Shown here: in pieces, positions 3,497 to 37,451 of the stretch
How the letters are laid out: each line of letters begins with the position of its first letter
Numbering within the stretch: the stretch's first letter is position 1
From: Escherichia phage IMM-002
Sequence record: NC_048071.1
Length of the DNA: 40,060 nucleotides
Direction: 5' to 3' (one strand)
Program-made: the position numbers and the translations under genes
The notes under the pieces: model-generated
Told to the model about the DNA's origin: nothing
Seen by the model: the letters and a program-made list of their open reading frames with translations, nothing else
Databases searched by the model: none

Positions 3497-6178
3497 ATGA
3501 GCGTCATCTCAATTGACAAGCACGACTTCTCTGATGTGTCGAATGCAATCGAACCATTCAACGTGCTGGCTGACCACTACGGTCAGGACCTAGCAGTAAA
3601 ACAGCTTCAGCTTGAGCATGAGGCGTACACTGAAGGCGAGCGACGTTTCATCAAGAACCTTGAGCGCCAAGCTGAGCGCGGGGAGCTGGCAGACAATCAG
3701 GTCGCCAAGCCACTGATGCAAACTCTGGTCCCGACCATCGCCAAGGCTGTTCGTGAGTGGCACGAAGGCCCGGACGGTAAGTCCTCGACCTCTCGCCCAA
3801 GCGTAGCGTTTACCATGCTGAGCACTGACGAGAAGGCTGTCAAAGACCGCTCTCTGCGAATCTCTGCTGAGTCTGCTGCGGTCATCATACTGAAAGTCAT
3901 CCTCAGCAAGCTGGTCAAGCCTGAGGGAATCCCGATAACGCCGATGGCCTCCGCGATTGGTCGCACACTTGAAGATGAAATCCGCTTCGGTCGCATCCGT
4001 GAGCAGGAGCAGGAGCACTTCAAGAAGACCATAGCTGAGAATCTGAAGAAACGTGCAGGAGCAAGCTACAAGAAAGCCTACATGCAAGCGGTCGAAGCCT
4101 CCATGCTGGAGCAAGGGCAACTGGCTGACGCTTGGGGGACTTGGAGTCCGACCGAGGCGGTACACGTAGGCATCAAGATGCTGGAGCTGGTCATCCAGTC
4201 CTCGCAACTGGTCGAACTGAAGCGCTACGGTGCGGGTAACGCTGCGGCAGACGTCGAGATGGTCCACCTGTCAGACTTCTGGGTCAAGAAGATGTCGCAA
4301 CGTGGCTTCTCACTGGCTGGCATCGCTCCGGTCTACCAACCTTGCGTCGTTCCACCTAAGCCGTGGACCGGGGTCGTGGGTGGTGGGTACTGGGCTAAGG
4401 GCCGAAGACCTCTCCCGCTGATTCGCTTAGGGTCCAAGGCTGCGGTCCAGCGCTACGAAGACGTGTACATGCCTGAAGTCTACGAGGCAGTGAATATCAT
4501 CCAGCAGACACCTTGGAAGGTGAACAAGAAGGTGCTGGACGTGGTGAACATGGTCGAGAAGCTGAACAACACGCCTATCGCTGACATCCCTCAGATGGAA
4601 CCGATGAAGCCTGAGGACTATGCAGGTGAGACCGAGGAAGAACTCAAAGCGTGGAAGAAAGCCGCTGCTGGTATCTATCGACGCGAGAAGGCCCGACAGT
4701 CCCGCCGTTTGTCCCTGAGCTTCATCGTCGGACAGGCGAACAAGTTCTCTCAGTTCAAGGCCATCTGGTTCCCATACAACATGGACTGGCGCGGTCGAGT
4801 CTATGCGGTCCCGATGTTCAACCCTCAGGGTAACGACATGCAGAAGGGCCTGCTGACTCTGGCAGTAGGCAAGCCAATCGGTGCGGACGGCTTCAAGTGG
4901 CTGAAGGTCCACGGTGCAAACTGCGCTGGTGTCGATAAAGTCACCTTCGAGGAGCGCATCAAGTGGGTCGAAGACAACCACGACAACATCCTCGCGGCTG
5001 CTAAGAGTCCGATGGATAGCATTGACTGGTGGGGTCAGTTAGACTCTCCGTTCTGCTTCCTCGCGTTCTGCTTCGAGTATGCTGGAGTCATGCACCACGG
5101 GCTGAGCTACTCCTGCTCACTGCCTATCGCGTTCGATGGGTCCTGCTCTGGGATTCAGCACTTCAGCGCGATGCTTCGTGACCACGTTGGTGGACATGCG
5201 GTCAACCTGACGCCAAGCGGGAAGGTCCAAGACATCTACCGCATTGTGTCAGACCGGGTGGAAGAACAGCTTAAGGAGCTGCTGGTCAACGGAAGTGACA
5301 ACGAGGTGAAGACCTTCGAGGACAAGAAGACAGGCGAGATTACTGAACGTCTGGTCCTTGGAACTCGCGAGCTGGCCCGTCAGTGGCTGACCTACGGGAT
5401 GTCACGCTCGGTCACTAAACGCTCGGTCATGACTCTGGCCTATGGGTCGAAGGAATACGGGTTCGCGGACCAAGTGTTTGAGGACACCGTGATGCCAGCG
5501 ATTGACAGCGGCAAGGGCGCGATGTTCACGGACCCAAGCCAAGCGTCACGCTTCATGGCTAAGATGATTTGGGATGCGGTAAGCGTGACCGTAGTTGCTG
5601 CGGTAGACGCGATGAAGTGGCTGCAAGGCGCTGCTAAACTGCTGGCTGCTGAGGTCAAGGACAAGAAGACAAAAGAGGTCCTTAAGCCTTGCCTCCCGGT
5701 TCACTGGGTAACGCCTGATGGCTTCCCGGTCTGGCAGGAATACCGAAAGAAGGACACCACCCGTCTGAACCTCCTGTTCCTTGGGTCGTTCAACCTGCAA
5801 CCGACAGTCAACAAAGGGTCTAAGAAAGAGCTGGACAAGCACAAGCAGGAGTCTGGTATCAGCCCTAACTTTGTACACTCACAGGACGGCAGTCACCTGA
5901 GGAAGACTGTGGTCCACACCCACCGCAAGTATGGCGTGATGTCCTTCGCAGTGATTCACGATAGCTTCGGGACCATCCCGGCTGACGCTGAGTTCCTGTT
6001 CAAGGGTGTCCGTGAGACGATGGTTGAGACCTACCGCGACAACGATGTGCTGCAAGACTTCTACGAGCAGTTCGCAGACCAGCTTCATGAGAGCCAGCGC
6101 GACAAGTTGCCCGAGCTGCCGAAGCGCGGTAAACTGAACATCGAAGACATTCTGTTATCTGACTTTGCATTCGCCTAA
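3497..6178 (+). CDS. 1: Single-subunit DNA-directed RNA polymerase (T7 gene 1 type)
   Basis: 893 aa from ATG 3497 (AAGGA RBS; track ORF opens at 3452); collinear with T7 RNAP incl. PWTGxxGGGYWA, AIWFPYNMDWRGRVYA, FCFLAFCFEYAGV, SGIQHFSAMLRD, HDSFGT and C-terminal SDFAFA. Confidence 0.97.
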   Translation: MSVISIDKHDFSDVSNAIEPFNVLADHYGQDLAVKQLQLEHEAYTEGERRFIKNLERQAERGELADNQVAKPLMQTLVPTIAKAVREWHEGPDGKSSTSRPSVAFTMLSTDEKAVKDRSLRISAESAAVIILKVILSKLVKPEGIPITPMASAIGRTLEDEIRFGRIREQEQEHFKKTIAENLKKRAGASYKKAYMQAVEASMLEQGQLADAWGTWSPTEAVHVGIKMLELVIQSSQLVELKRYGAGNAAADVEMVHLSDFWVKKMSQRGFSLAGIAPVYQPCVVPPKPWTGVVGGGYWAKGRRPLPLIRLGSKAAVQRYEDVYMPEVYEAVNIIQQTPWKVNKKVLDVVNMVEKLNNTPIADIPQMEPMKPEDYAGETEEELKAWKKAAAGIYRREKARQSRRLSLSFIVGQANKFSQFKAIWFPYNMDWRGRVYAVPMFNPQGNDMQKGLLTLAVGKPIGADGFKWLKVHGANCAGVDKVTFEERIKWVEDNHDNILAAAKSPMDSIDWWGQLDSPFCFLAFCFEYAGVMHHGLSYSCSLPIAFDGSCSGIQHFSAMLRDHVGGHAVNLTPSGKVQDIYRIVSDRVEEQLKELLVNGSDNEVKTFEDKKTGEITERLVLGTRELARQWLTYGMSRSVTKRSVMTLAYGSKEYGFADQVFEDTVMPAIDSGKGAMFTDPSQASRFMAKMIWDAVSVTVVAAVDAMKWLQGAAKLLAAEVKDKKTKEVLKPCLPVHWVTPDGFPVWQEYRKKDTTRLNLLFLGSFNLQPTVNKGSKKELDKHKQESGISPNFVHSQDGSHLRKTVVHTHRKYGVMSFAVIHDSFGTIPADAEFLFKGVRETMVETYRDNDVLQDFYEQFADQLHESQRDKLPELPKRGKLNIEDILLSDFAFA

Positions 6179-6190
6179 GGAGGCATCTAC

Positions 6191-6391
6191 ATGAAATTCG
6201 CACACAAGCAAACTGGCGTTAAAGGCGGTACTCAAATCGTGACCGTGACCGAGCACAATGGCAAAGGTCTGGTGAAGACCACGGTCATCCCAACCGAGAT
6301 GTCAAAGCAGCTTAACGTCCCATTCAAGTGGCTGGTGAAGCTGGTTCAAGAGCGACACGAGTCAGAACTCCGCGAGGTGGTAACGAAATGA
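6191..6391 (+). CDS. Hypothetical protein
   Basis: 66-aa ORF with strong TAAGGAGG RBS directly after RNAP stop. Confidence 0.55.
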   Translation: MKFAHKQTGVKGGTQIVTVTEHNGKGLVKTTVIPTEMSKQLNVPFKWLVKLVQERHESELREVVTK

Positions 6392-6465
6392 CAGACCTTA
6401 AGTGGCTGGCCCTATGGCTGGCCTTCTTAGCAGTGTACATCTTAATCCAACGCAGAAGAGGCTAA
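6388..6465 (+). CDS. 25-codon hydrophobic microprotein (MTDLKWLALWLAFLAVYILIQRRRG)
   Basis: ATGA overlap with upstream stop, GAGGTGG 7 nt upstream, one TM-like helix plus RRR anchor; below ORF-track size cut-off. Confidence 0.35.
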   Translation: MTDLKWLALWLAFLAVYILIQRRRG

Positions 6466-6471
6466 ACACCA

Positions 6472-6929
6472 TGTTCAACCGTAAACTGAAGGCACGTATC
6501 GCAGCACTTGAAGCAACCATACAGCGTCAGGACCACAACCTTGAGCTGGCTAATCGAGAGCAAGCACGGCTGAGGGCCAAACTACAAAAAGCTGAGACCA
6601 AGCGTGAAGTCGAGCCTTTACGTGTGAAGCGCATGGTCGGCCTGAAGTTCAAGGCGCTGTTCAACGGTATCTACCAGCCGACTGAGTTCAAGACCGGGCC
6701 GGGACCATGTGGAAAGACAGTAACGCACTTCACCACGAGCCGAGACGAGCGGACGCTGACCATCCACCAGCACCATACGGACGAGTCCAGCAAGAGCTTT
6801 GAGTATCGGCTGAGCGACATCGACGGTCGCATCCAGTATGACTACGAGCTGGTGCAGGTTTACGGTGAGGAGGCAGAGCGGGAACGTATGGTCCAAGCCC
6901 TCCGCAACAGACCGCGCTTCATAGCCTAA
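6472..6929 (+). CDS. Hypothetical protein with N-terminal coiled-coil
   Basis: ATG 6472 preferred (GTG 6402 in track overlaps the microprotein); KLKARIAALEATIQRQDHNLELANREQARLRAKLQKAE heptad-like region. Confidence 0.5.
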
Positions 6930-10457: not shown

Positions 10458-10910
10458 GTGGCTGCATGGACACCAAAACGGGGGCACTCTGTGGGTGCCT
10501 ACCGCTCTGGACTTGAGGCCAAGAACCAGCAGTGGCTGGAACAGAACGGCGTCAAAGCGGAGTACGAAAGCCATTATATCAACTATGTGATTCCGGCTTC
10601 CGACCACAAGTATACACCAGACTTCATCCTTCCGAATGGCATCATCGTCGAGACCAAAGGTATCTTCGACAGTGAGGACCGCAAGAAGCATATGCTGGTG
10701 CGCGAGCAGCACCCTGAGCTGGACATCCGGTTCGTGTTCTCGTCCTCCCGCTCCAAGCTGTACAAAGGGTCGCCGACCACGTATGGCGCATGGTGCGAAA
10801 AGAACGGCTTTAAGTTTGCCGACAAGTTTATCCCGGTTGAGTGGCTGAAAGAGGCGACTGTACGTCTGCCTTCCGGTATACTCATCCCGAAGAAAGGAGC
10901 TAAGAAATGA
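10458..10910 (+). CDS. 3: Endonuclease I (Holliday-junction resolvase)
   Basis: 150 aa, GTG start; YRSGLE, YTPDFILPNGIIVETKG, DRKKHMLVREQHPELDIRFVFSSSRSKLYKGSPTTYG, KFADK collinear with T7 gp3. Confidence 0.95.
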   Translation: MAAWTPKRGHSVGAYRSGLEAKNQQWLEQNGVKAEYESHYINYVIPASDHKYTPDFILPNGIIVETKGIFDSEDRKKHMLVREQHPELDIRFVFSSSRSKLYKGSPTTYGAWCEKNGFKFADKFIPVEWLKEATVRLPSGILIPKKGAKK

Positions 10911-11356
10911 CTAAGCATTTAACGTGTGTTGATTTACCATTTGGTGCTCAGTACAAATTCCACCCTGACGTCATTGAGGCGCACCCAGGACTGAGCACTG
11001 ACACGTATGAGCGTCGGGATAATCACTCGGTTGTTGTAACGGGTCCATTCAAGGGGAACACTGTACAATGGTACGGACATGAGAAGACTCGCATTGTCGA
11101 AGTTGGAAAACCTCAAGTCCTGCCAGCCTCAAGCGTACCGCCTGTGACAGTGAAACGTGAAGTCCTGACCATCGACAAGATTGGTGTGGGTCAGACGTTC
11201 ATCGTTCACGGTAAGCCTGACGAAGTGTACGTGAAGATTAGCAACTCGCACGTCTTCAACCATAAGCGTCTCCAGATGCACACGACTGTAGCAGAGCGCT
11301 TCCAGTCACACCTGAATCTGGTCGTTGTTGAGCTGGTGGTGTACAATGGCAAGTAA
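10907..11356 (+). CDS. Hypothetical protein inserted between endonuclease I and lysozyme
   Basis: 149-aa ORF, ATGA coupling, AAAGGAG RBS; AT-rich codons at 5' end; no T7 counterpart at this position. Confidence 0.55.
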   Translation: MTKHLTCVDLPFGAQYKFHPDVIEAHPGLSTDTYERRDNHSVVVTGPFKGNTVQWYGHEKTRIVEVGKPQVLPASSVPPVTVKREVLTIDKIGVGQTFIVHGKPDEVYVKISNSHVFNHKRLQMHTTVAERFQSHLNLVVVELVVYNGK

Positions 11357-11804
11357 GGTACAGTTCAAACCACGTACAGTCACTGACGCAATCTTCGTCC
11401 ACTGTAGTGCTACACAACCGTCTCAGGACATCGGGGTAGACACTATCCGCATGTGGCACAAGCAGCAGGGCTGGCTTGACGTAGGCTATCACTTCGTCAT
11501 CAAACGCGATGGCACCGTGGAGTCTGGACGTCCGGTCGATGTCGTAGGGTCACACGTTAAGGATTGGAACTCCCGGTCCGTAGGCGTCTGCCTTGTAGGT
11601 GGAATCGACGCTAAGGGCAAGTTTGAAGCTAACTTCACTCCTGCTCAGATGAGCGCCCTACGCAACAAGCTGGCTGAACTGAAGGTCCTGTACCCTCAGG
11701 CAGACATCAAGGCCCATCACGATGTGGCACCAAAGGCTTGCCCAAGTTTCGACTTGCAGCGCTGGCTGAACACTAACGAAATGGTCACTTCCGACCGAGG
11801 CTAA
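11346..11804 (+). CDS. 3.5: N-acetylmuramoyl-L-alanine amidase (T7 lysozyme type)
   Basis: 152 aa from ATG 11346; VQFKPR, DAIFVHCSAT, WLDVGYHFVIKRDGTVESGR, VGVCLVGGID, KGKFEANFTPAQM, HHDVAPKACPSFDL, VTSDRG nearly identical to T7 gp3.5. Confidence 0.96.
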   Translation: MASKVQFKPRTVTDAIFVHCSATQPSQDIGVDTIRMWHKQQGWLDVGYHFVIKRDGTVESGRPVDVVGSHVKDWNSRSVGVCLVGGIDAKGKFEANFTPAQMSALRNKLAELKVLYPQADIKAHHDVAPKACPSFDLQRWLNTNEMVTSDRG

Positions 11805-27353: not shown

Positions 27354-29636
27354 ATGGCTAGTAATATCGAATCAGCATTAGCTAACCGGACTATGGGCCG
27401 TGGTCGCGCTCCGGGTAAAGCTATCAGTCTGGACTATCAGGCTGCAAACGTACAGGGGCAGACCGGGGACTCTGGTCTTGCCAAGGCGCTCACGGACTTC
27501 GTGTCCACTGGCGCTGGCGTCTACAAGCAGTTTCAGGAGAAGGCCAAGAGTCTCGGAGACGAAAGGTCCAACGAGATTATTCGTAAGCTGACTCCTCAGC
27601 AGAGACGTGACGCCATCCATAATGGGACACTCCTGTATCAGGACGACCCGTATGCGATGGAGGCTCTGAGAGTCAAGACTGGTCGCAACGCTGCCTATGC
27701 GGTAGACGATGAGATTAACGTCAAGATTCAGAACGGTGAGTTTCGCACTCGTCAGGACATGGAGGAGTACCGCCACCAGCGACTGCAAGATGCCGCTAAG
27801 TCTTATGCGGAAGAGGCTGGGATTAACCCGGCAGATGAACACTTCCAGCGTGGATTTAACGCAGACATCACCGACCGTAACGTAGCCATCTACGGGTCGT
27901 TCAATAAGTATTTCTCTAAGCAGTCCGAGAATACCGCTATGCTGAACACCCGTGTCGAGCTGAACTCGTTCCTGAATGACGGGGACCTGATGCGGTCGCC
28001 CGAGGCTGGCAAGTCGTTCATGGCTTACATGCGTGATGGCCTGACCACTGCTGCCATCCCGTCTGACCAAAGGGCGACTGAAGTCATCACCCAGACGGTA
28101 CGTGACGCAATCCAGAAGTCCGGTGGCTCCAACTTCCTACAGCAGGTACGAAACGAACGCATCACGCTTAACGGTGTGGACGCGACAGTCGAGGAGATTG
28201 TTGGACCTGAGGTATTCAATGCTGCAATGATTGAGGCCCAAGGCACCGAGTACAAGCTGGTAGCCAAGTATCAGGAAGACTTGTCGCTTGGCGTTCAGTC
28301 TGCGATGCTTCAGGATGACCCGACCATCGGTCTGGCTCAAATCCAGAAACTCAAGGCTCAGAACAACCAGCTTCAGCCGGGTGAGGAGATGACGCCCCAA
28401 CGTCAGATGCTTATCAACGCCGAGGCCAGCCTCTTAGAGTCCGTGAAGCGTAAGTCTGCTGAACAGGCGAAGGAGAACACTAAGCTCATCCAGACGCAGA
28501 ACAAGCAACTGGTCATTGACCAAGTGTACCAGCGTCGACTGAATGGCGACAACGTGTCCACCAACTATGAGGACCTCCCGGTCTCTGAGGCTACTGGTGA
28601 GTTCAAGCGTTCGGACATGAACAACTACGCTATGGGTAAACTCCAGCAAATCGACCAGATGGACATCCCGCAAGCTGCGAAGGATGCTCAGAAGGTGGCG
28701 CTGCTGCGAGCTGACACCAATAACGGTCCGTTCCGTAACGCCTTCCAGACGCTGACTCAAGATGCTGCTGGTGAGTGGCAAGCTGCCGTCATCCGTGGTC
28801 AGTATGACCCAGACAAGATGCAGCGCTTCGAGTCTCTGCGTAAGGTCTATACTCAGGACCCTTCCAGCTTCGCGGCTCTCTACCCTGACCAAGCCTCTCT
28901 GTTCACTACTTTCGAGCAGATGGACAAGATGGGTCTGGACCCTCAGACGATGATTGACGCTGACAAACAGGCTGCAAGCCAGTCCCGTGAGATGCGCATT
29001 GAGTCTGACAAGGCGTGGCAAGAGCTGAAGAACGACTCGAAGAACAAGGACCTCTCGCGGCTCCCGACGAGTCTGGACGCAAGTGCTCGTAAGGTCTGGG
29101 ACTCATGGTATTACCGTACAGGTAACGCTGATGCGGCGACCCAGAACACCCAGAAGTGGCTGAACGAGAACACCGTGACTTTCAGTGACGAAGGTCAGGA
29201 CGGTAAGTCCATCGGCATGGTGTCCAAACATCAACTTATGGTAGGGGATAACCCTGAGTCATGGCAGGTGGGTCGAGACATTATCGACACCGCTCGTCAA
29301 CAGCTCATCAAGACTAACCCTTGGGTCGTGAACTCTCAGCTCTCCGTAGTTGAGCAGAACGGCTCGGTCTTCCTTCAGGACGCTACCGGGACTATTCGTA
29401 TTCGATACGATAAAGAGCTGGTAGGCAAACTGTACCGTGAACAGCAGAAGCAAGCCGAGGATAAAGCCTACGCTGAGGCCGAACGTAAAGCCAACACCCG
29501 CGCTCGCATTGTCGAGACTAAAGCGGCTGGCGATAAGCGTCGTAACGAGCGTGAAGCTAATATCCAGAAACGGGGCGGTATGTACAAAGACGTATCGCTG
29601 GAGGGTATCGCAAACACCTTAATCGGTAAGGAGTAA
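27354..29636 (+). CDS. 15: Internal virion protein B (core protein)
   Basis: 760 aa; DERSNEIIRKLTPQQRRDAIHNGTLLYQDDPYAMEALRVKTGRNAAY almost identical to the T7 gp15 N-terminal region. Confidence 0.95.
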   Translation: MASNIESALANRTMGRGRAPGKAISLDYQAANVQGQTGDSGLAKALTDFVSTGAGVYKQFQEKAKSLGDERSNEIIRKLTPQQRRDAIHNGTLLYQDDPYAMEALRVKTGRNAAYAVDDEINVKIQNGEFRTRQDMEEYRHQRLQDAAKSYAEEAGINPADEHFQRGFNADITDRNVAIYGSFNKYFSKQSENTAMLNTRVELNSFLNDGDLMRSPEAGKSFMAYMRDGLTTAAIPSDQRATEVITQTVRDAIQKSGGSNFLQQVRNERITLNGVDATVEEIVGPEVFNAAMIEAQGTEYKLVAKYQEDLSLGVQSAMLQDDPTIGLAQIQKLKAQNNQLQPGEEMTPQRQMLINAEASLLESVKRKSAEQAKENTKLIQTQNKQLVIDQVYQRRLNGDNVSTNYEDLPVSEATGEFKRSDMNNYAMGKLQQIDQMDIPQAAKDAQKVALLRADTNNGPFRNAFQTLTQDAAGEWQAAVIRGQYDPDKMQRFESLRKVYTQDPSSFAALYPDQASLFTTFEQMDKMGLDPQTMIDADKQAASQSREMRIESDKAWQELKNDSKNKDLSRLPTSLDASARKVWDSWYYRTGNADAATQNTQKWLNENTVTFSDEGQDGKSIGMVSKHQLMVGDNPESWQVGRDIIDTARQQLIKTNPWVVNSQLSVVEQNGSVFLQDATGTIRIRYDKELVGKLYREQQKQAEDKAYAEAERKANTRARIVETKAAGDKRRNEREANIQKRGGMYKDVSLEGIANTLIGKE

Positions 29637-29641
29637 TAACA

Positions 29642-32600
29642 ATGGCGACTCGTGGTATTCGCAACAATAACATCGGGAACATTCGTGTTTCCAAAGACCA
29701 GTGGGAAGGAGCTACAGGAGACGATGGGTCTTTCGTAACGTTCGACACTCCTGACTCTGGTGTCCGTGCTCTGGCGAAGAACCTGATGTCCTACGGTCGC
29801 CAAGGTTATGACTCAATCGAGAAGATTATCACTCGTTGGGCACCTCCTAGTGAGAACGACACCCAGTCCTACATTCAGTCCGTGGCTTCGGCTACGGGCA
29901 TCCCGGCTACTCAAAGTCTCGACCTGACGGACCCGGACGTCCTCGCCTCTCTGTCTGAGGCTATCGGCTACCATGAGACTGGCTCCCGCTACGATAAGTC
30001 TGTCTACCAGACTGGCGTGGGCCGTGCTCTTGGGAACGGTATTACCCCAAAGTCTCCACCAGTAAGCGCTAACGTCTTCGACGCTCTCACGGAGGGCTTG
30101 AAGGCGAAACCTAAAGTCGCTCTGGGAGAGAACCTTCCGGGCGTTACTGGTCTGAACATCGAAGGTCAAGAACCTGAGGCTCCCAATGAGTCTTTCGGAG
30201 AGATGTTCTATAAGTCAACTGGCGAGACGCTGGACCAACGGGCTGACCGCTCTACGTGGTTCGGCTTCGGTGGAGCTGCTGAGGCTGAAGTGAATAACTC
30301 TATGGTCGGCGTGGCTATCCGCGCTGGTCAGACCGAGGACTCACTGGATGTCATTGGCGACGTATTCAACCCGACCCGCTGGAACAACCACAAGTGGTCC
30401 CGCGAGGAGTTAGACCAGATTCGTAACGCTGGGGTCCTGCCTCAGTATTACGGAGTCATCACTGGTGGTTCACCTCAGAACCTGACCGAGCTGATTAACT
30501 TGGCGCTGGAGAACCAGAAGTTAGACGCTGAGAAGGCTAAGGCCGGGACTGGCGCTCAACTGGCGGCTGGTGTGATTGGTGCTGGTGTGGACCCTCTGAC
30601 CTACGTTCCTATCGCTGGACAGGTAGGCAAGGGCGGTAAGCTCATCAACAAGATGTTCACCGTGGCTGCTCAGTCTGGTGCGCTTGCTGGGGCCTCCGAG
30701 CTGGCTCGTACTTCCGTTGCTGGTGGCGATGCTCATGTGGCTGAGGCTATTATGGGCGGTGCTCTCTTCGGTGGCGGGATGACTGCTATCGGGGACGCTA
30801 TCGGCAAGGCCCTCGGTAAGTCGACCAATGAGTTCGCTGGTCCAGCTACCCGTCTGGAGGCCCGTGAGACTGCCCGTAACGTCGATGGTCAGGACCTGTC
30901 CCGTCTGCCAATCCGCGAAGGGGAGGAGACCTTCAGTCACCAAGGCGTTAAGTTCGCTGACGTGCCGAATGAGCCGGGAAGTGTTCGACTGGAAGACGGT
31001 TCAATCCTGATTGGTGAGAATCCTCTGAACCCTAAGACACGTCAAGTCTTCGACGAGGTGATTGAGCCTGAACGTGCGGCTGCTGGTGTCAACCTTGGTG
31101 GTCTCACCGAGATTGGCCTGAAGCTCCTGAGGTCTGAGAACCCTGAGATTCGCGGACTTGCCGCTGACTTGGTGCGCTCACCTACAGGTATGCAGTCAGG
31201 TGCGAGCGGTAAGATTGGTACTACAGCGTCAGACGTATTCGAGAGACTTCGTGCAGTGGACCATCGGTTCTACAACGACATCGACGATGCGGTGACTCAG
31301 GCCCTGAAGGACCCGTACTTCCAGACCAACTTTAACCGTGACACTGGCGCATTCCGTCAGGACATCTACCAGCGTGTAGCTCTGGCGATTGAAGATGGAA
31401 GTGGAAACCTGAAGGCTGAGCTGACTCCGGGTGAACTTAAGGTCTATGGCCTGCTGAAGAACCAGTTCGACGCTAAGCGTGAGATGATGGAGAACCCGGC
31501 GATGTTCGGTCGAGTGGACGCTCAGTCTATCTTCCCCGGTAGCCGCTTCAAGGGTACTTACGTGCCTCACGTCTACAGCAACCAGATGAAGCAACTGTTC
31601 ATCAACGAGCTGGGAAGCCCTGAGGCTCTACAGGAGGCCATCAAGAAGTCGTGGCTCACGAGCTATGCTTCCAGACCTGAGGTCAAGGCTCGCGTCGATG
31701 AGGCCCTGCTGGAGGCTAACCCGAACCTGAAGCCTGAGGAACTTGCGGCTGCGGTCGATAAGTATGCCAACGACAAGGCTTACGGTATCTCTCACACCGA
31801 CCTGTTTGAACGCTCGTCTGTCATGGAGGAGAACATCAACGGTCTGGTGGGTCTGGAGAACAACAACTTCCTTGAGGCCCGTAACCTGTTCGATAGCGAT
31901 ATGTCTATCATCCTGCCTAATGGTCAGCCGTTCAACGTGAACAGCCTCCGTGAGTGGGACATGGACAAGATTGTCCCGGCGTACAACCGTCGAGTCAATG
32001 GCGATATTGCTATAATGGCTGGGACCGGGAAGACCACTAAGGAGATGAAGGACACTGTAGAGACCATGATGAACCGTGCTGGCGATGACGGTAAGCTGAA
32101 AGGCGAAGTGGCGACTCTGCGTGATACCCTGAAGATTCTGACTGGTCGTGCTCGACGCGATGGTGCTGACGATGCGGCTTTCTCTACCGTGATGCGGACC
32201 ATGACAGACCTGTCCTTCTTCGCCAAGAATGCCTACATGGGCGTACAGAACTTGACGGAGATTGGCGGGATGCTGGCCCGTGGTAACGTCCGTGCGATGC
32301 TGCATGGTATTCCGATGTTCCGTGACCTCGCCTTCAGAAACAAGAAGATGGGAGCCTCGGAGATTAAGGACCTGCACAACGTGGTCTTCGGTAAGGAGCT
32401 TGACGACTCAATCCGCCCGTCCAAACAGGATGTCATCGACCGTCTGCGAGCGTACAGTGACCTGAGTAAACCTGTAGCTACTGCTTTAGGTTCTGCCAAG
32501 TATTACACTGGTGAACTTGCGGTCCGCTCTCCGTTTACGAAAGTCCTGAACGGGACGACGAACTACCTGTTAGACGCCGGACGTCAAGGCTTCTTGTCTG

Positions 32601-33532
32601 ACATCGTGGAACATAGTCTGACTGGCAGTAAGCGTAAGTTCGATGACCGTTGGTTGAAGACTGCTGGTATCTCCGCTGACCAGTGGAAGGGCATTAAGTC
32701 CCTCATCCGTGAGTCGGTGACTCGTGGTCCAGACGGGAAGTACACCATCAAGGACAAGAAGGCGTTCAGTCAGGACCCAAGGGCTATGGACCTCTGGCGT
32801 ATGGGTGACACCATCGCTGATGAGACCCTGCTTCGTCCGCACAAGCTGAGCAACATGGACGCCAAGGCTTATGGTCCGCTGGCGAAGACTGTCTTGCAGT
32901 TTAAGAACTTCGTCATCAAGTCCATCAACGGTCGAACCATGCGTACCTTCTACAACGCCACCAAGAACAACCGAGCTATGGATGCTGCACTATCAACGGT
33001 TATGTCTATGGGTCTGGCTGGGATGTACTACATGGCTCAGGCGCACATCAAGGCTTACGCTATGCAGGACGGTCGTGACCGTGAGTACCTGAAGCAAGCC
33101 TTGAACCCGACGATGATTGGTTATGCTGCTCTATCCCGTAGCTCCCACTTGGGTGGACCTCTTGGGGTCGCCAACATTCTGGGTGGTATCGCTGGGTATG
33201 AGGACACTAAGTTACTCCGCTCGTCTATCCTTCCGCGCTCACCTACCGAGAAGCCTGAACGTGCCATTACCTATGGTGCTGCGAAGAGTGACCCGGTGAT
33301 GAATGTGGTCGGCAACTTCCTTGAGCAGGTCCCGGCTTTCGGTTATGCTGCTAACGTTGGCGCTTCGGCTTACAACTTGGCTGGCTACCTGAAGTCCGAC
33401 ACCCGTGTGAACGAACGAGACTACATGACCGGGATGTATAACACCTTCCGTGAGCTGGTCCCGAACGACCCTATCACCCAGAAGCTGCTGTTAGGCACCT
33501 TTGAGGAGCAAGGTATTCACATCAAGAACTAA
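29642..33532 (+). CDS. 16: Internal virion protein C/D-like (ejectosome core), with non-T7 N-terminal domain
   Basis: 1296 aa; from about residue 200 collinear with T7 gp16 (TWFGF..AAEAE, TRWN, GAGVDPL, RLEARETARN, RSPTGMQSGASGK, MENPAMFG, KGTYVPHVY, SRPEVKARVDE, DKAYGISH, NFLEARNLFDSD, YNRRVNGDIAIMAG, LRPHK, NNRAMDAALS); first about 130 aa unrelated to the T7 SLT domain. Confidence 0.93.
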   Translation: MATRGIRNNNIGNIRVSKDQWEGATGDDGSFVTFDTPDSGVRALAKNLMSYGRQGYDSIEKIITRWAPPSENDTQSYIQSVASATGIPATQSLDLTDPDVLASLSEAIGYHETGSRYDKSVYQTGVGRALGNGITPKSPPVSANVFDALTEGLKAKPKVALGENLPGVTGLNIEGQEPEAPNESFGEMFYKSTGETLDQRADRSTWFGFGGAAEAEVNNSMVGVAIRAGQTEDSLDVIGDVFNPTRWNNHKWSREELDQIRNAGVLPQYYGVITGGSPQNLTELINLALENQKLDAEKAKAGTGAQLAAGVIGAGVDPLTYVPIAGQVGKGGKLINKMFTVAAQSGALAGASELARTSVAGGDAHVAEAIMGGALFGGGMTAIGDAIGKALGKSTNEFAGPATRLEARETARNVDGQDLSRLPIREGEETFSHQGVKFADVPNEPGSVRLEDGSILIGENPLNPKTRQVFDEVIEPERAAAGVNLGGLTEIGLKLLRSENPEIRGLAADLVRSPTGMQSGASGKIGTTASDVFERLRAVDHRFYNDIDDAVTQALKDPYFQTNFNRDTGAFRQDIYQRVALAIEDGSGNLKAELTPGELKVYGLLKNQFDAKREMMENPAMFGRVDAQSIFPGSRFKGTYVPHVYSNQMKQLFINELGSPEALQEAIKKSWLTSYASRPEVKARVDEALLEANPNLKPEELAAAVDKYANDKAYGISHTDLFERSSVMEENINGLVGLENNNFLEARNLFDSDMSIILPNGQPFNVNSLREWDMDKIVPAYNRRVNGDIAIMAGTGKTTKEMKDTVETMMNRAGDDGKLKGEVATLRDTLKILTGRARRDGADDAAFSTVMRTMTDLSFFAKNAYMGVQNLTEIGGMLARGNVRAMLHGIPMFRDLAFRNKKMGASEIKDLHNVVFGKELDDSIRPSKQDVIDRLRAYSDLSKPVATALGSAKYYTGELAVRSPFTKVLNGTTNYLLDAGRQGFLSDIVEHSLTGSKRKFDDRWLKTAGISADQWKGIKSLIRESVTRGPDGKYTIKDKKAFSQDPRAMDLWRMGDTIADETLLRPHKLSNMDAKAYGPLAKTVLQFKNFVIKSINGRTMRTFYNATKNNRAMDAALSTVMSMGLAGMYYMAQAHIKAYAMQDGRDREYLKQALNPTMIGYAALSRSSHLGGPLGVANILGGIAGYEDTKLLRSSILPRSPTEKPERAITYGAAKSDPVMNVVGNFLEQVPAFGYAANVGASAYNLAGYLKSDTRVNERDYMTGMYNTFRELVPNDPITQKLLLGTFEEQGIHIKN

Positions 33533-33591: not shown

Positions 33592-36390
33592 ATGGCTAAA
33601 ACAACTATCACTCAGTTCCCTGCTGGTCAATCGCAGTATCGAATTGAGTTCGACTATCTGGCTCGACCTTTCGTCGTCGTAACGTTGGTGAACTCCGCCG
33701 ACCAGACGCAGAACAGGGTGCTGAGGGCTGGAGCTGACTATAGGTTCCTGAACCCCACCTTAATCGAGGTTATGATTCCACAGACAGGTTTCGATACCTT
33801 GCAAATTCACCGTCAGACGGACACCGAGCTGATTGTTGGTTTCAGGGACGGCTCAGTTCTTACAGCTAAGGACTTGACAAATGCAGAGCTTCAGGCCATT
33901 CACATCTCGGAAGAGGGTAGGGACCAGACTGTAGACTTAGCGAAGGAATACGCTGACGCTGCCGCCAAAGCGCGAAACGATGCCGAAGACGCCCGTGATA
34001 GCATCGAGCAGGTCATGAAGTCTGGACTGTACGGATACACTCTGGTTGAGGACTTCCAAAAAGGTGCCACATTGTCTCACCCGGCTGAGGCACTTCGCTG
34101 GACACTGCCTGATGGGACGGGAGAATACTACCGCTGGGACGGTGTGTTTCCAAAGGTGGTTCCAGCAGGGTCAACGCCCACATCAGCTGGAGGGGTCGGA
34201 GTTGGTGCTTGGGTATCTATTGGTGACGCATCTCTTCGAGGAAACCTAGCTAACCCAGCCTACGGTGACGGCCTTGTTGCTTCGCAGCTTCCTAACTCCC
34301 CGGTGGCTAGAACAGTCCATGATAAAATGCTAGAAGCTGTGAGCATTGCGGACTATATGGTTGGCGGTGATGTGGCTGGTGCGATAATTGGTGCCCTGTC
34401 CTCCACTGCTGGTCGGGTTAGTGTTCCTGCCGGGAATCACATAGCCACACCTTCCGCAGCGCAAGTGGCTGGCGTACTCTCTGCCCTAAGTAGGCTGAAC
34501 ATTAACGGGTCCTTAACGATTCGTCTCCCTAAGGGAAGGGTTAATCTATCCTCTCCGGTATTGGTGGAGCTGGACGGAGGGAATAACCTAAGCATTGAAG
34601 GACAGCCTAACGTCCCAGTAACCATTACAGGACAAGCGTCTGTCTCTGGGTCTGCTGGAAACTACCAAGTAACCCTTAACGTGTCCTCGACAGCCGGGGT
34701 CTCTGTGGGTGACTTCCTGCATACCAACCAAGCTACAGGCACAGGAGCATGCGACCTTCATCGCGGTGTTTGGGAGATTACCGCTGTTGGGGCAGGGTCT
34801 CTGACTGTCAGGAATACGTGCCAGCTCTCATCCTTCCCGGCTAACACCATAACCTCCAGCTCTAGCCGAGTGCTGACCTCAGTGCTCATGTTTGACCGCT
34901 GCGATGGGTTCATAGTGCCGTCCTCTGAAGTTGGTAACATGAGTAACTTTGTTATCGCAGGTAACTCAGACTCATACTGGAGGGCCTCGGCTGTGGGGAC
35001 TACCGAGCTGGGGACTCATGGTCTGGCTGTAGGCTCAAACACTGTAGCCGTGAACGGTAAGTCAGATAACGTTAACCCTCAAGGTAAGACGGGCGGTAGC
35101 GTGACTTTCGGTCAATACATGGGCGTCTCCGGGTTTGACCAGCAGGGCATTGTTACCGAGCTTGGTGGTAGCTTCTGGGGCGACTTTACTTGCTGCTGTA
35201 ACAACAAGAGACGCGGGTTCTACTCGTCAACTGCATCTGGCATTCGTGCTAAGCAGATTACGGCCAATGGTAACTATCTTGATGGGGTTATTGCGGATAT
35301 TGGCGGAGACATCTACTCGAGCTCTTCTAGCTGCGCCGCAGGTAACGGGTCCTCAGGCATAAGCGCTGCCCATAACGGTTCTGTGATATGGGACGCAGGC
35401 AAGGCCAGCTACAATAAGCTGAATGGTGCCAATGGGGTGGCGGGGGGCTTCCTACAGATGACTGGCTCAACGATGCAGGGTAACTTGGCCACTGGCGCTA
35501 ACCTAGCCTATGGTGCCATCCTCTACTGCGACAACTCCCAGATATCTTTAAACGGAACCTATGGCATTAACTGTCAGCTGGGCTCGGTTGTTCGTGGTCC
35601 TAACTGCACGTATATAGGGAATAACAACCAAGGCATTAGAGGCTCTTACAATGCGACCGTAACCTTTACAGGCTCTACATTCTCTGGTAACTCTGGCGGG
35701 GACTTCCTCTTTACCGCTATGTCTCTTGGCATCTTCGGGAACACTAATTACGGTGGGGATATTGTTGCCACGGACATTAAGTTAGTGAACCAGTCAACTG
35801 GCAAAGGTGTCCGTCTTACTGGGACCTCTGGTGGGGATAACATTGTTATGTCCTATGATGTCACGGGTAATGGGTCCTTTGTCGAGGGTTATAACTTCAG
35901 GTCTGGTGACGTTGGTATCTACCCATCGGATGATGCGGTTCGCAATATTGGACGACCAGCAAACAGGTTTAACATCGGCTTCTTTGCGGGAGGAACACAG
36001 TCTACGTCAGACGCTAGGCTTAAGGACCCTATCAGGGACTTTTCTGAGGCAGAACTCAAGGCGGCTGTCGCCTGTAGTAAATCCTTAGGATTCTGGACTT
36101 GGCTGGACGACGACAGCAAGCGCCTTCATGCAGGGACTACTGTTCAAAGAGTTCTAGAAATCCTAGAGGATAACGGGCTGGATTGGCGTGAGTATGGGTT
36201 CATCGGGTTTGACTCGTGGGAAGATGAGTATAAACCTGTCGTTGCGGAGATTGATGGTATGGAATACGAGACTGGCGAGGTTGTCAAGGTGGTTGAGGCA
36301 GGGTCACTGTGGCAGCTGCGTGACCAAGAGTTTGACAGATTCCTAATCCGTGGACTCTCCGCCCGACTCTCGGCTATCGAGAAGGACTGA
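33592..36390 (+). CDS. 17: Tail fibre / tailspike: T7 gp17-like N-terminal adaptor, Gly/Asn/Ser-rich beta-helix-like central domain, C-terminal intramolecular chaperone (peptidase S74-type) domain
   Basis: 932 aa; N-terminal about 150 aa resemble T7 gp17 ([33 protein letters not shown]); C-terminal [14 protein letters not shown]... fits the SDxRxK autoproteolytic chaperone motif of endosialidase-type fibres; codon usage distinct from rest of genome. Confidence 0.9.
36007..36387 (+). other. Predicted intramolecular chaperone / autoproteolysis domain within the tail fibre (cleavage expected at Ser806)
   Basis: SDARLKDPI motif beginning at codon 806 of the fibre ORF. Confidence 0.6.
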
Positions 36391-37001: not shown

Positions 37002-37451
37002 ATGCTCAAACTTTTACGACAGGCCGTCCCTTGGCTGGTGGCAGGACTCCTGTTCTGTTCTGGCTACTGGGTGGCAGACAATAAGTGGGAGGCGAAGGTA
37101 AACAATGAGTACATCACGAAACTTGAAGCAACTGAGCAGTCGAGGCGTTCAGTGCAGTCCGAAGTCAACAAAGTCTCAGCCGAGTGGCAGGACAAGATGT
37201 CCGAGCTGGAAGGCTCTACTGATAGGGTTATTGCTGACCTTAACCGCGATAACAAGCGGCTGCGCGTCAAAGTCAACACCACAGGTATCACCGAGTCAGA
37301 TTACAGTCGATGCTTCCCTGATGGTCGAGTCGAACTACACCCAGAGACTTCTAAAAGTCTTATCCGAATAACGCAGGAAGCAGACCTTAAGGAGAAAGCC
37401 CTTCAGGATACCATACGTAAGCTTCAGCAAGAGAAGGAGGCGAAACCTTGA
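37002..37451 (+). CDS. 18.5: Rz-like i-spanin
   Basis: 149 aa; N-terminal TM ([13 protein letters not shown]), [27 protein letters not shown] and QDTIRKLQ match T7 gp18.5. Confidence 0.9.
37105..37371 (+). CDS. 18.7: Rz1-like o-spanin lipoprotein, embedded in +1 frame within 18.5
   Basis: 88 aa; lipobox-like AITSGC, Pro-rich; aligns with T7 gp18.7 (ISGCAS...VDSSLMVEPN). Confidence 0.85.
   Translation: MSTSRNLKQLSSRGVQCSPKSTKSQPSGRTRCPSWKALLIGLLLTLTAITSGCASKSTPQVSPSQITVDASLMVESNYTQRLLKVLSE

What the first reader, a model, noticed from the sequence alone, without database searches (positions are those of the whole stretch)
29642..30040. gp16 internal virion protein carries a non-SLT N-terminal domain
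T7 gp16 begins with a lytic transglycosylase (SLT) domain that helps penetrate peptidoglycan. Here the first about 130 aa (MATRGIRNNNIGNIRVSKDQWEG...GYHETG) show no resemblance to that domain, while the rest of the protein is clearly gp16-like. This looks like an N-terminal domain swap, possibly to a different cell-wall-degrading or binding module. I do not recognise the replacement domain with confidence.
Basis: partly seen in the sequence, partly recalled or inferred. Interest (0 to 1): 0.5.

Follow-up and report, generated by a model that had tools for sequence, protein, structure and literature searches.

The report
Alternative wall-cutting domain on phage gp16
This T7-like phage carries, at the front of its injected protein gp16, a small cell-wall-cutting domain of the phage Enc34 endolysin type in place of T7's transglycosylase domain; the trait is shared by the whole K1F-like phage group, which databases usually label as T7-type.

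Summary
ORF 29642..33532 (1296 aa) is the gp16 ejection protein of a complete K1F-like phage genome (genus Kayfunavirus). T7 gp16 aligns only from residue 132 (T7 residue 158). Residues 1-131 have no SLT signal: Pfam SLT gives no hit here but E 1.7e-31 on T7, and a profile comparison with T7 residues 1-156 gives 0.07% probability.

The swap junction (G133-ITPK) falls on the T7 boundary between the enzymatic "wing" and the gp15-binding "tape". The most likely function is local peptidoglycan cleavage during DNA entry, probably hydrolytic (glucosaminidase-like) rather than lytic-transglycosylase chemistry.

About 220 sequenced phages share this form, against about 1,100 with the SLT form. It is an ordinary modular swap of a known domain, and its main value is correcting annotation.

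The parts
29642..33532 (+). gene 16 (internal virion / ejection protein D), 1296 aa plus stop
   Evidence: ORF listing. phrog_342 bit score 1078.7 over residues 6-1294. T7 gp16 PDB chains at 1305 bits over residues 132-1295, and 9vvp_L 'Gp29' at 2688 bits over the full length.
29628..29633 (+). Shine-Dalgarno AAGGAG, 8 nt before the ATG; the gp15 stop TAA lies at 29634-29636
   Evidence: Sequence read directly. The equivalent RBS is annotated in phage Pisces.
29642..30028 (+). Enc34-type (PHA02564) muralytic domain, residues 1-129, with predicted helices 37-53, 59-66, 74-85, 98-113 and 119-129
29651..29686 (+). Conserved N-terminal motif R4-G-I-R-N-N-N-I-G-N-I-R15 (family consensus RGIRNNNPGNIR). 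I11 (29672-29674) replaces the usual Pro.
   Evidence: R7, N8, N9, N10 and N13 are invariant and P11 is at least 90% conserved in 43 homologues. I11 is shared by 11 of 24 gp16-type sequences, including Pisces and MII_002.
29837..29839 (+). W66 codon (TGG), equivalent to Enc34 Trp79
   Evidence: Invariant in A1. W in 23 of 24 gp16-type sequences. Mapping. Role from PMC8943055.
29870..29872 (+). Y77 codon (TAC), equivalent to Enc34 Tyr95
   Evidence: Invariant in A1 and in 70 of 70 sequences.
29975..29977 (+). E112 codon (GAG), predicted catalytic glutamate, equivalent to Enc34 Glu131
   Evidence: Invariant in A1. Present in 68 of 70 sequences and in all 23 complete gp16-type sequences. Lies in the motif HE(T/N)G at the end of the helix spanning residues 98-113.
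30029..30052 (+). Linker and swap junction (residues 130-137, LGNGITPK). Homology to T7 resumes at G133-ITPK = T7 G158-ITPK.
   Evidence: phmmer alignment starts at query 132 / T7 158. BLASTP gives GITPK as the only match. pLDDT drops after residue 130. The T7 domain boundary 156/157 is from PMC8954989.
30035..33529 (+). T7-like gp16 body (residues 132-1296), including the region equivalent to the T7 'molecular tape' 157-228 that binds gp15
   Evidence: The functional description of the T7 regions is from PMC8954989.

Best explanation
The window is a complete Kayfunavirus (K1F-like, T7 relative) genome. Gene 16 encodes the large ejection protein that is packaged in the capsid core and expelled into the host envelope at infection. 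Its body (residues 132-1296) is orthologous to T7 gp16. The N-terminal enzymatic module has been exchanged. T7 has a GH23/SLT lytic transglycosylase of about 156 aa. This protein has a 129-aa all-helical Enc34-type (PHA02564) peptidoglycan glycosidase domain, joined by a short linker to the conserved gp15-binding segment.

Inferred mechanism: after adsorption gp16 passes through the tail and refolds in the periplasm. Its N-terminal domain cleaves glycan strands locally, with E112 as the acid catalyst and W66/Y77 positioning the substrate. This lets the gp15-gp16 tunnel traverse the murein. The body then inserts in the inner membrane and helps pull in the DNA.

The chemistry is probably hydrolytic (N-acetylglucosaminidase-like, as proposed for Enc34 and M4Lys) rather than lytic-transglycosylase. 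The function in the ejectosome is conserved while the enzyme family, and probably the bond cleaved, differ.

Shown here: homology, predicted fold, conserved catalytic residues, purifying selection, junction position and clade distribution. Inferred: enzymatic activity of this particular domain, its bond specificity, and its role at entry.
For: Identity of the phage and gene:
- The region is 96.6% identical in DNA to Escherichia phage Pisces, and 207 phage records cover at least 80% of it.
- The window equals IMGVR_UViG_2974592685_000001.
- Synteny is gp14 (PF24072), gp15, gp16, then a tailspike with the T7 tail-fibre N-terminal domain.

Domain assignment:
- 7q47 (Enc34 endolysin catalytic domain): phmmer E 3.8e-13 over residues 3-122; hhalign of the 43-sequence family profile 100%, E 1.4e-39, 137 columns.
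- PHROG families annotated as endolysin or injection transglycosylase match at E 1e-50 to 1e-7.

Catalytic residues:
- Enc34 Glu131/Trp79/Tyr95 (PMC8943055) map to E112/W66/Y77.
- These are invariant in 43 homologues and conserved in all complete gp16-fused copies, with W66 in 23 of 24.

Other evidence:
- The Enc34 domain is experimentally muralytic on E. coli, P. aeruginosa and H. alvei sacculi.
- Purifying selection: dN/dS 0.05-0.15 over codons 1-128 against six relatives.
- The junction coincides with the T7 wing/tape boundary.
- The phage has its own lysis amidase (11325..11804, phrog_822) and Rz spanin (37002..37451). The gp16 domain is therefore not needed as the lysis endolysin.
- The same domain sits in other virion proteins: an epsilon15-like ejection protein, minor-tail or tape-measure-like proteins, and 'virion protein' entries.
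Against: - No activity assay exists for any gp16-fused copy.
- The bond specificity of the family is itself unsettled. M4Lys HPLC suggested both glucosaminidase and endopeptidase products, and Enc34 specificity was not measured.
- The structural evidence rests on a predicted model, not a solved structure of this domain. The 9vvp entry did not appear in the Foldseek hits, so either its N-terminal domain is unresolved or the entry is absent from that library.
- The near-invariant Pro of the RNNNPGN motif is Ile in this phage. This could lower activity, although half of the gp16-type sequences, all from isolated infectious phages, share it.
- In T7 the LT activity is needed only under some conditions (cited in PMC8954989). 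A catalytic role could therefore be conditional here too.
Confidence: 0.8

Rival explanations
1. The N-terminus is a highly diverged SLT (GH23) domain descended in place from the T7-type domain, not a swapped module.
For: Cernooka et al. propose a very distant common ancestry of the Enc34 fold with GH23 and GH73, with a superimposable catalytic Glu. Annotators label relatives 'peptidoglycan transglycosylase'.
Confidence: 0.03
2. The domain is retained only as a structural 'wing' or peptidoglycan-binding module of the periplasmic tunnel and is no longer catalytic.
For: The P11I change lies in the most conserved motif. [quoted passage not shown] No assay exists for a gp16-fused copy.
Against: E112, Y77 and W66 are conserved in all complete gp16-type copies (W66 in 23 of 24) and across the wider family. 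dN/dS is 0.05-0.15. I11 is fixed in a whole subclade of viable isolates. Conservation of a catalytic Glu is not expected for a purely structural role.
Confidence: 0.1
3. The domain serves as (or doubles as) the end-of-cycle lysis endolysin, as in Enc34, rather than as an entry enzyme.
For: The characterised relatives (Enc34 ORF39, M4Lys) are lysis-cassette endolysins. Several PHROG matches are labelled 'endolysin'.
Against: Here the domain is fused to a 1296-aa capsid-core protein in the structural operon, between gp15 and the tailspike. It lacks the C-terminal transmembrane domain of the Enc34-type endolysins. The genome has a T7-type gp3.5 amidase and an Rz spanin. A near-identical homologue is present as four chains in a PDB assembly (9vvp), which fits the tetrameric T7 core.
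Confidence: 0.05
4. The start codon is mis-called and the domain is not part of mature gp16.
For: None found.
Against: AAGGAG lies 8 nt upstream. The family motif starts at residue 4. The PDB chain 9vvp_L starts with the same residues. All 22 complete gp16 loci have the domain at the ORF start. The next Met is M49, inside the fold.
Confidence: 0.01

Closest known systems
Hafnia phage Enc34 ORF39 endolysin catalytic domain (PDB 7Q47; PHA02564 family; Cernooka et al. 2022, PMC8943055), and its relative M4Lys of Salmonella phage BSPM4
   Different: Enc34 and M4Lys are 26-kDa lysis-cassette endolysins with a C-terminal two-helix membrane domain. Here the domain is the N-terminus of a 1296-aa capsid-internal ejection protein. 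It lacks two Enc34 loop insertions (129 aa against about 165 aa) and has Ile for the motif Pro.
T7/T3 gp16 (internal virion protein D, peptidoglycan transglycosylase; PDB 7EYB, 7K5C, 6YT5)
   Same: Orthologous body from T7 residue 158 onward (1305 bits). Same gene order, the same conserved gp15-binding 'tape' segment, and an N-terminal muralytic module of similar size at the same position.
   Different: T7 residues 1-156 are a GH23 SLT lytic transglycosylase (PF01464, E 1.7e-31). The module here belongs to a different family with no detectable similarity and probably has hydrolytic chemistry.
K1F gp16 and other Kayfunavirus gp16 (for example PDB 9VVP 'Gp29', Pisces, SH4, Dev2)
   Same: Same protein: 79-100% identity in the N-terminal domain and 90-100% in the body.
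   Different: Only small differences. This phage belongs to the subclade with I11 instead of P11. These proteins are annotated by transfer from T7 as 'peptidoglycan transglycosylase' or 'with endolysin domain'. A 2025 survey reported no recognisable domain in the 1295-aa forms.
Other virion-associated lysins of podophages with relocated or alternative modules (SP6 gp36, K1-5 gp38, phiKMV gp36 lysozyme domains)
   Same: Same principle: the ejection protein carries a muralytic module that varies between phage groups (review table; 'mosaically modular' conclusion).
   Different: Those modules are lysozyme-type domains, and in phiKMV the module is C-terminal (my own knowledge). The module here is Enc34-type and N-terminal.
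GH73 N-acetylglucosaminidases (T. maritima TM0633, FlgJ, C. difficile Ecd09610)
   Different: No beta-lobe, a permuted helix order, and no significant sequence similarity. Not a member by any test run here.

Membership tests
Enc34-type / PHA02564 muralytic domain | Significant sequence similarity to the Enc34 EAD across the whole domain | tested here: met
   phmmer E 3.8e-13 over residues 3-122. hhalign of the family profile against Enc34 residues 1-169: 100%, E 1.4e-39, 137 columns.
Enc34-type / PHA02564 muralytic domain | All-helical fold resembling the alpha-lobe of lysozyme, superimposable on 7Q47 | tested here: met
Enc34-type / PHA02564 muralytic domain | Catalytic Glu (Enc34 E131) with Trp79 and Tyr95 | tested here: met
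   E112, W66 and Y77 align to them and are invariant in 43 homologues. The paper's numbering is the GenBank numbering minus 1.
Enc34-type / PHA02564 muralytic domain | N-terminal RGIRNNNPGN motif | tested here: met
   R7, N8, N9, N10 and N13 are present. P11 is replaced by Ile here and in 11 of 24 gp16-type copies.
Enc34-type / PHA02564 muralytic domain | Peptidoglycan-degrading activity | not testable with these tools
   Shown only for Enc34 ORF39deltaC and reported for M4Lys.
T7-type gp16 ejection protein (internal virion protein D) | Full-length homology of the body, and gene order gp14-gp15-gp16-tail fibre | tested here: met
   1305 bits over residues 132-1295 against 7eyb/6yt5. phrog_342. 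PF24072 gp14 and T7 tail-fibre N-domain neighbours.
T7-type gp16 ejection protein (internal virion protein D) | N-terminal SLT (GH23, PF01464) lytic transglycosylase domain | tested here: not met
   No PF01464 hit at E<=1, against E 1.7e-31 for T7. hhalign 0.07%. BLASTP finds nothing.
T7-type gp16 ejection protein (internal virion protein D) | Packaged in the capsid core and ejected at infection | not testable with these tools
   Indirect only: PDB 9vvp holds 4 chains of a near-identical 1295-aa homologue.
GH23 SLT lytic transglycosylases | SLT profile match with the catalytic Glu in the N-terminal helix | tested here: not met
   The conserved Glu is at residue 112 of 129, in the fourth of the five predicted helices.
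GH73 N-acetylglucosaminidases | PF01832 profile match and alpha+beta lysozyme-like fold | tested here: inconclusive

The most novel reading that the evidence does not exclude
The module exchange changes the chemistry of envelope penetration. K1F-like ejectosomes (and, separately, Providencia-phage ejectosomes) would cut the GlcNAc-MurNAc bond hydrolytically, instead of forming 1,6-anhydro-MurNAc as the T7 LT does. Entry would then be insensitive to features that block lytic transglycosylases and lysozymes, such as MurNAc O-acetylation (known in Providencia and Proteus, from my own knowledge) or proteinaceous LT/lysozyme inhibitors. It would also release different muropeptide signals. The gp16 N-terminus would then be a host-adaptive cassette, not a neutral replacement.
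Probability: 0.15. Interest if true: 0.55.

Novelty: new member of a known kind. Interest (0 to 1): 0.33.

Why it matters
- **Annotation.** It assigns a specific, experimentally anchored enzyme family to the N-terminus of gp16 in more than 200 sequenced K1F-like phages. Several of these are used or proposed for therapy and diagnostics. They are currently labelled 'peptidoglycan transglycosylase' by transfer from T7, or reported as having no recognisable domain.
- **Family range.** It extends the Enc34-type muralytic family from lysis-cassette endolysins to ejectosome proteins. Together with the epsilon15-like, minor-tail-like and stand-alone 'virion protein' contexts, this shows the family is mainly a virion-associated lysin module.
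- **Engineering.** It defines a clean swap junction (start codon to G133-ITPK) for building chimeric gp16 proteins or harvesting a compact 130-aa Gram-negative lysin.
- **Limits.** It does not change the general picture that podophage ejection proteins are mosaic.

Tried and rejected
- **Pfam and NCBIfam.** Scans of the full protein and of the domain found nothing useful. The only hit was a chance ATP-synt_G match at E 0.15, and NCBIfam found nothing. The family has no Pfam model; precomputed Pfam is '-' for all 107 homologues.
- **Divergent SLT.** Rejected on the Pfam positive control on T7, the per-member scan of 43 homologues, and hhalign.
- **Downstream start codon.** Rejected.
- **P11I as a sign of decay.** Rejected. 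It is fixed in a subclade of viable phages, with the catalytic residues intact and a low dN/dS.
- **Literature.**
  - The search for '9VVP' returned only unrelated papers.
  - No cryo-EM paper on a Kayfunavirus core was found.
  - None of the 20 top-ranked of 77 papers returned by a five-term search contained Enc34; no listed paper paired it with gp16 or ejectosome terms.
  - The Enc34 paper does not mention gp16 or virion-associated homologues.
  - The K1F genome paper (Scholl & Merril 2005), which may already have noted the divergent N-terminus, is not held. Prior recognition therefore cannot be excluded.
- **Extra residues in two relatives.** Pfam scans of the roughly 170-190 extra residues in gp16 of L027 and L028 gave nothing.

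Full report
**What is at the coordinates.**
The window is a complete T7-like phage genome of about 40 kb. It is identical to IMGVR_UViG_2974592685_000001. Over the gp15-gp16 region its closest GenBank relative is Escherichia phage Pisces, genus Kayfunavirus, at 96.6% DNA identity.

The ORF 29642..33532 (+) encodes 1296 aa. It starts at an ATG 8 nt after AAGGAG and 5 nt after the gp15 stop. It lies between a gp14-family gene (PF24072), gp15, and a tailspike with the T7 tail-fibre N-terminal domain.

**Checking the observation.**
phmmer against PDB sequences aligns T7 gp16 (7eyb, 6yt5) at 1305 bits, but only over query residues 132-1295 = T7 residues 158-1314.

In a four-way alignment scored in 40-column windows, identity to T7 is 12-20% up to about residue 133 and mostly 40-75% afterwards (35% in the junction window, 18% at the extreme C-terminus).

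BLASTP of the two N-termini recovers only the junction peptide GITPK.

Pfam SLT (PF01464) hits T7 gp16 residues 15-127 at E 1.7e-31. It gives nothing on the query at E<=1, and nothing at E<=0.1 on any of 43 homologues scanned singly.

hhalign of the 43-sequence family profile against T7 residues 1-156 gives probability 0.07%.

**The start codon is right.**
- The conserved motif of the family begins at residue 4.
- Free-standing homologues begin M-x-x-RGIRNNNP.
- PDB chain 9vvp_L (1295 aa, 'Gp29', four chains) begins MATRGIRNNN.
- All 22 complete gp16 loci retrieved from IMG/VR have the domain at the ORF start.

**What the domain is.**
Sequence evidence:
- The N-terminus matches PDB 7q47, 'Endolysin from bacteriophage Enc34, catalytic domain', at E 3.8e-13 over residues 3-122.
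- The family profile matches Enc34 ORF39 residues 1-169 at 100% probability, E 1.4e-39.
- PHROG families annotated as endolysin, head protein, tape measure protein or 'tail injection transglycosylase' match at E 6.5e-50 to 9e-7.

Structural evidence:
- An AlphaFold2 model of residues 1-140, built on 43 homologues, has mean pLDDT 90.9.
- The model has five helices (37-53, 59-66, 74-85, 98-113, 119-129), and confidence drops after residue 130.
- Foldseek finds only 7q47 below E 0.001 (TM 0.79-0.80).

What is known about the family (Cernooka et al. 2022, PMC8943055):
- The domain belongs to the PHA02564 family.
- It is muralytic on outer-membrane-permeabilised E. coli, P. aeruginosa and H. alvei.
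- It carries a catalytic Glu131 with Trp79 and Tyr95. These superimpose on the catalytic residues of GH73 and GH23 enzymes despite a permuted helix order.

**Catalytic residues.**
The GenBank translation of Enc34 ORF39 numbers these residues W80, Y96 and E132. The paper's numbering is therefore shifted by one. They align to W66, Y77 and E112 of the window protein.

In the 43-sequence alignment the invariant columns are R7, N8, N9, N10, N13, F34, G40, R42, A43, W66, A67, P68, N72, T74, Y77 and E112.

Among 24 gp16-fused sequences (23 IMG/VR loci, one of them the window's own contig, plus the window sequence itself):
- E112 is present in all 23 complete sequences.
- Y77 is present in all 24.
- W66 is present in 23 of 24, with one Tyr.

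Nei-Gojobori dN/dS over codons 1-128 against six relatives is 0.05-0.15. dS is near saturation, so the ratio is approximate.

The one oddity is I11 in place of the near-invariant Pro of RNNNPGN. It is shared by 11 of the 24 sequences, including Pisces and Enterobacter phage MII_002. The K1F branch keeps Pro. It is a lineage trait of viable phages, not a lesion.

**The junction.**
Homology to T7 resumes at G133-ITPK, equal to T7 G158-ITPK. According to the review of T7 ejection-protein structures (PMC8954989), T7 gp16 residues 1-156 form the transglycosylase 'wings' of the gp15 tunnel. Residues 157-228 are the 'molecular tape' that cements gp15.

The exchanged segment is thus exactly the enzymatic module. 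It runs from the start codon to the domain/tape boundary, and the gp15-binding tape is left intact.

**Distribution.**
- tblastn of the domain against 50,697 phage records finds 763 records.
- About 222 of them are at 60% identity or more. Those listed are almost all K1F-like phages of Escherichia, Salmonella, Enterobacter, Citrobacter, Shigella and Cronobacter, and K1F itself is at 79%.
- By contrast, the T7 SLT module is found in 1139 records, including T7, T3, Klebsiella, Yersinia, Pectobacterium and Pseudomonas gh-1-like phages.
- A Providencia-phage 'internal virion protein D' of 1292 aa carries the same fold at 40% identity. This suggests an old or repeated acquisition.

Outside gp16, the domain occurs in these contexts:
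- inside the protein that follows the gp14-like gene of an epsilon15-like phage;
- in 617-, 649-, 680- and 1254-aa virion proteins, one with a weak minor-tail-protein signal;
- as stand-alone proteins of 133-146 aa, some named 'structural protein P5' or 'virion protein';
- in Chivirus-type endolysins with a C-terminal membrane domain.

**How it most likely works.**
By position and by analogy with T7 gp16, the domain is a virion-associated lysin. The analogy rests on Moak & Molineux 2000 and 2004, as cited.

The inferred sequence of events is:
1. The domain is expelled with the core proteins.
2. It refolds in the periplasm.
3. It opens the murein locally so that the gp15-gp16 conduit can reach the inner membrane.

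It is not the lysis enzyme. The genome has a T7-type amidase (11325..11804, phrog_822) and an Rz spanin (37002..37451). The domain also lacks the membrane anchor of the Enc34-type endolysins.

Cernooka et al. argue for N-acetylglucosaminidase chemistry. Their grounds are the GH73 resemblance and the M4Lys digestion products, but specificity was not measured for Enc34. If they are right, K1F-like phages cut a different bond, hydrolytically, than T7 does. That step is inference.

**Comparison with what is known, and novelty.**
Both components are known: the T7-type gp16 body, and the Enc34-type domain, which has a crystal structure. Swapping of muralytic modules among podophage ejection proteins is an accepted theme.

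What I could not find stated is the specific assignment:
- The Enc34 paper does not mention virion proteins or gp16.
- None of the 20 top-ranked of 77 papers returned by a five-term search contained Enc34, so no listed paper paired it with gp16 or ejectosome terms.
- A 2025 survey of UPEC-phage lysins lists four 1295-aa 'internal virion proteins with endolysin domain' as having no recognisable domain, in contrast to an SLT-bearing one.
- GenBank records call the protein 'peptidoglycan transglycosylase' or 'lytic exotransglycosylase' by transfer from T7.

The K1F genome paper could not be read. The 9VVP deposit implies that a structural study of a near-identical protein exists. Prior recognition is therefore possible.

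I rate it a new member of a known kind. It is useful for annotation and engineering but not surprising to a specialist.

**Verdict.**
- Interest is 0.33.

Noticed in passing
window 29672-29674 (I11 of gp16): The near-invariant Pro of the family motif RNNNPGNIR is Ile here. The change is shared by 11 of 24 gp16-type sequences (the Pisces/SH4/Dev2-like branch), while K1F-like copies keep Pro. The effect on activity is unknown.
   Followed up: yes
window 29822-30040 (gp16 residues ~61-133): Between this phage and K1F, the C-terminal half of the N-terminal domain plus the linker is the most divergent part of gp16 (64-78% identity against 84-100% in the body). The linker also varies in length (GNG / SGAGG / NG). 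This could reflect relaxed constraint or recombination within the module.
   Followed up: partly
L027 4201-8589 and L028 4201-8658 (IMG/VR relatives): Two relatives have gp16 of 1462 and 1485 aa. Each carries an in-frame insertion of about 170-190 aa at the same site (after window residue ~691-698). The two insertions are unrelated to each other and have no Pfam match. This looks like an insertion hotspot for accessory domains in the ejection protein.
   Followed up: partly
L006 4203-6732 (Salmonella phage VB_ST_E15, epsilon15-like): The Enc34-type domain (ARGIRNNNPGNLEYS...) lies in the middle of the ORF that follows the gp14-like gene. That ORF (4203..5738) overlaps a second long ORF in another frame (5257..6732), and the record annotates a CDS only from 5275. 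This suggests a frameshift or mis-annotation of a large ejection protein.
   Followed up: no
window 33592-36390: The 932-aa tailspike combines a T7 tail-fibre N-terminal adaptor, a TSP1/Gp66-type N-domain, a right-handed beta-helix and a C-terminal Peptidase_S74 intramolecular chaperone. This looks like a depolymerase-type receptor-binding protein rather than a T7-like fibre.
   Followed up: partly
window 10907-11356 and 11325-11804: A 149-aa ORF between endonuclease I and the amidase has no Pfam match and matches only PHROGs of unknown function (16385, 15211). The amidase ORF as listed begins at a TTG overlapping it, so its true start is probably further downstream.
   Followed up: no
related records MN067430 (Ro103C3lw) and MK301532/NC_048136 (Ro45lw): In these relatives the gp15-gp16 match is split into two pieces, with an extra 'hypothetical protein' or 'endonuclease' feature under the match. 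This suggests a homing-endonuclease insertion near or in gene 16. Enterococcus phage EFA-1 (MT350292) also shows an HNH endonuclease next to gp16.
   Followed up: no
related record PQ039553 (Enterobacter phage vB_Ecl_MII_002, 78,696 bp): The record holds two copies of the region and is flagged with a 19.6-kb 'big repeat'. It looks like a concatemeric assembly of a genome of about 39 kb rather than a 79-kb phage.
   Followed up: no
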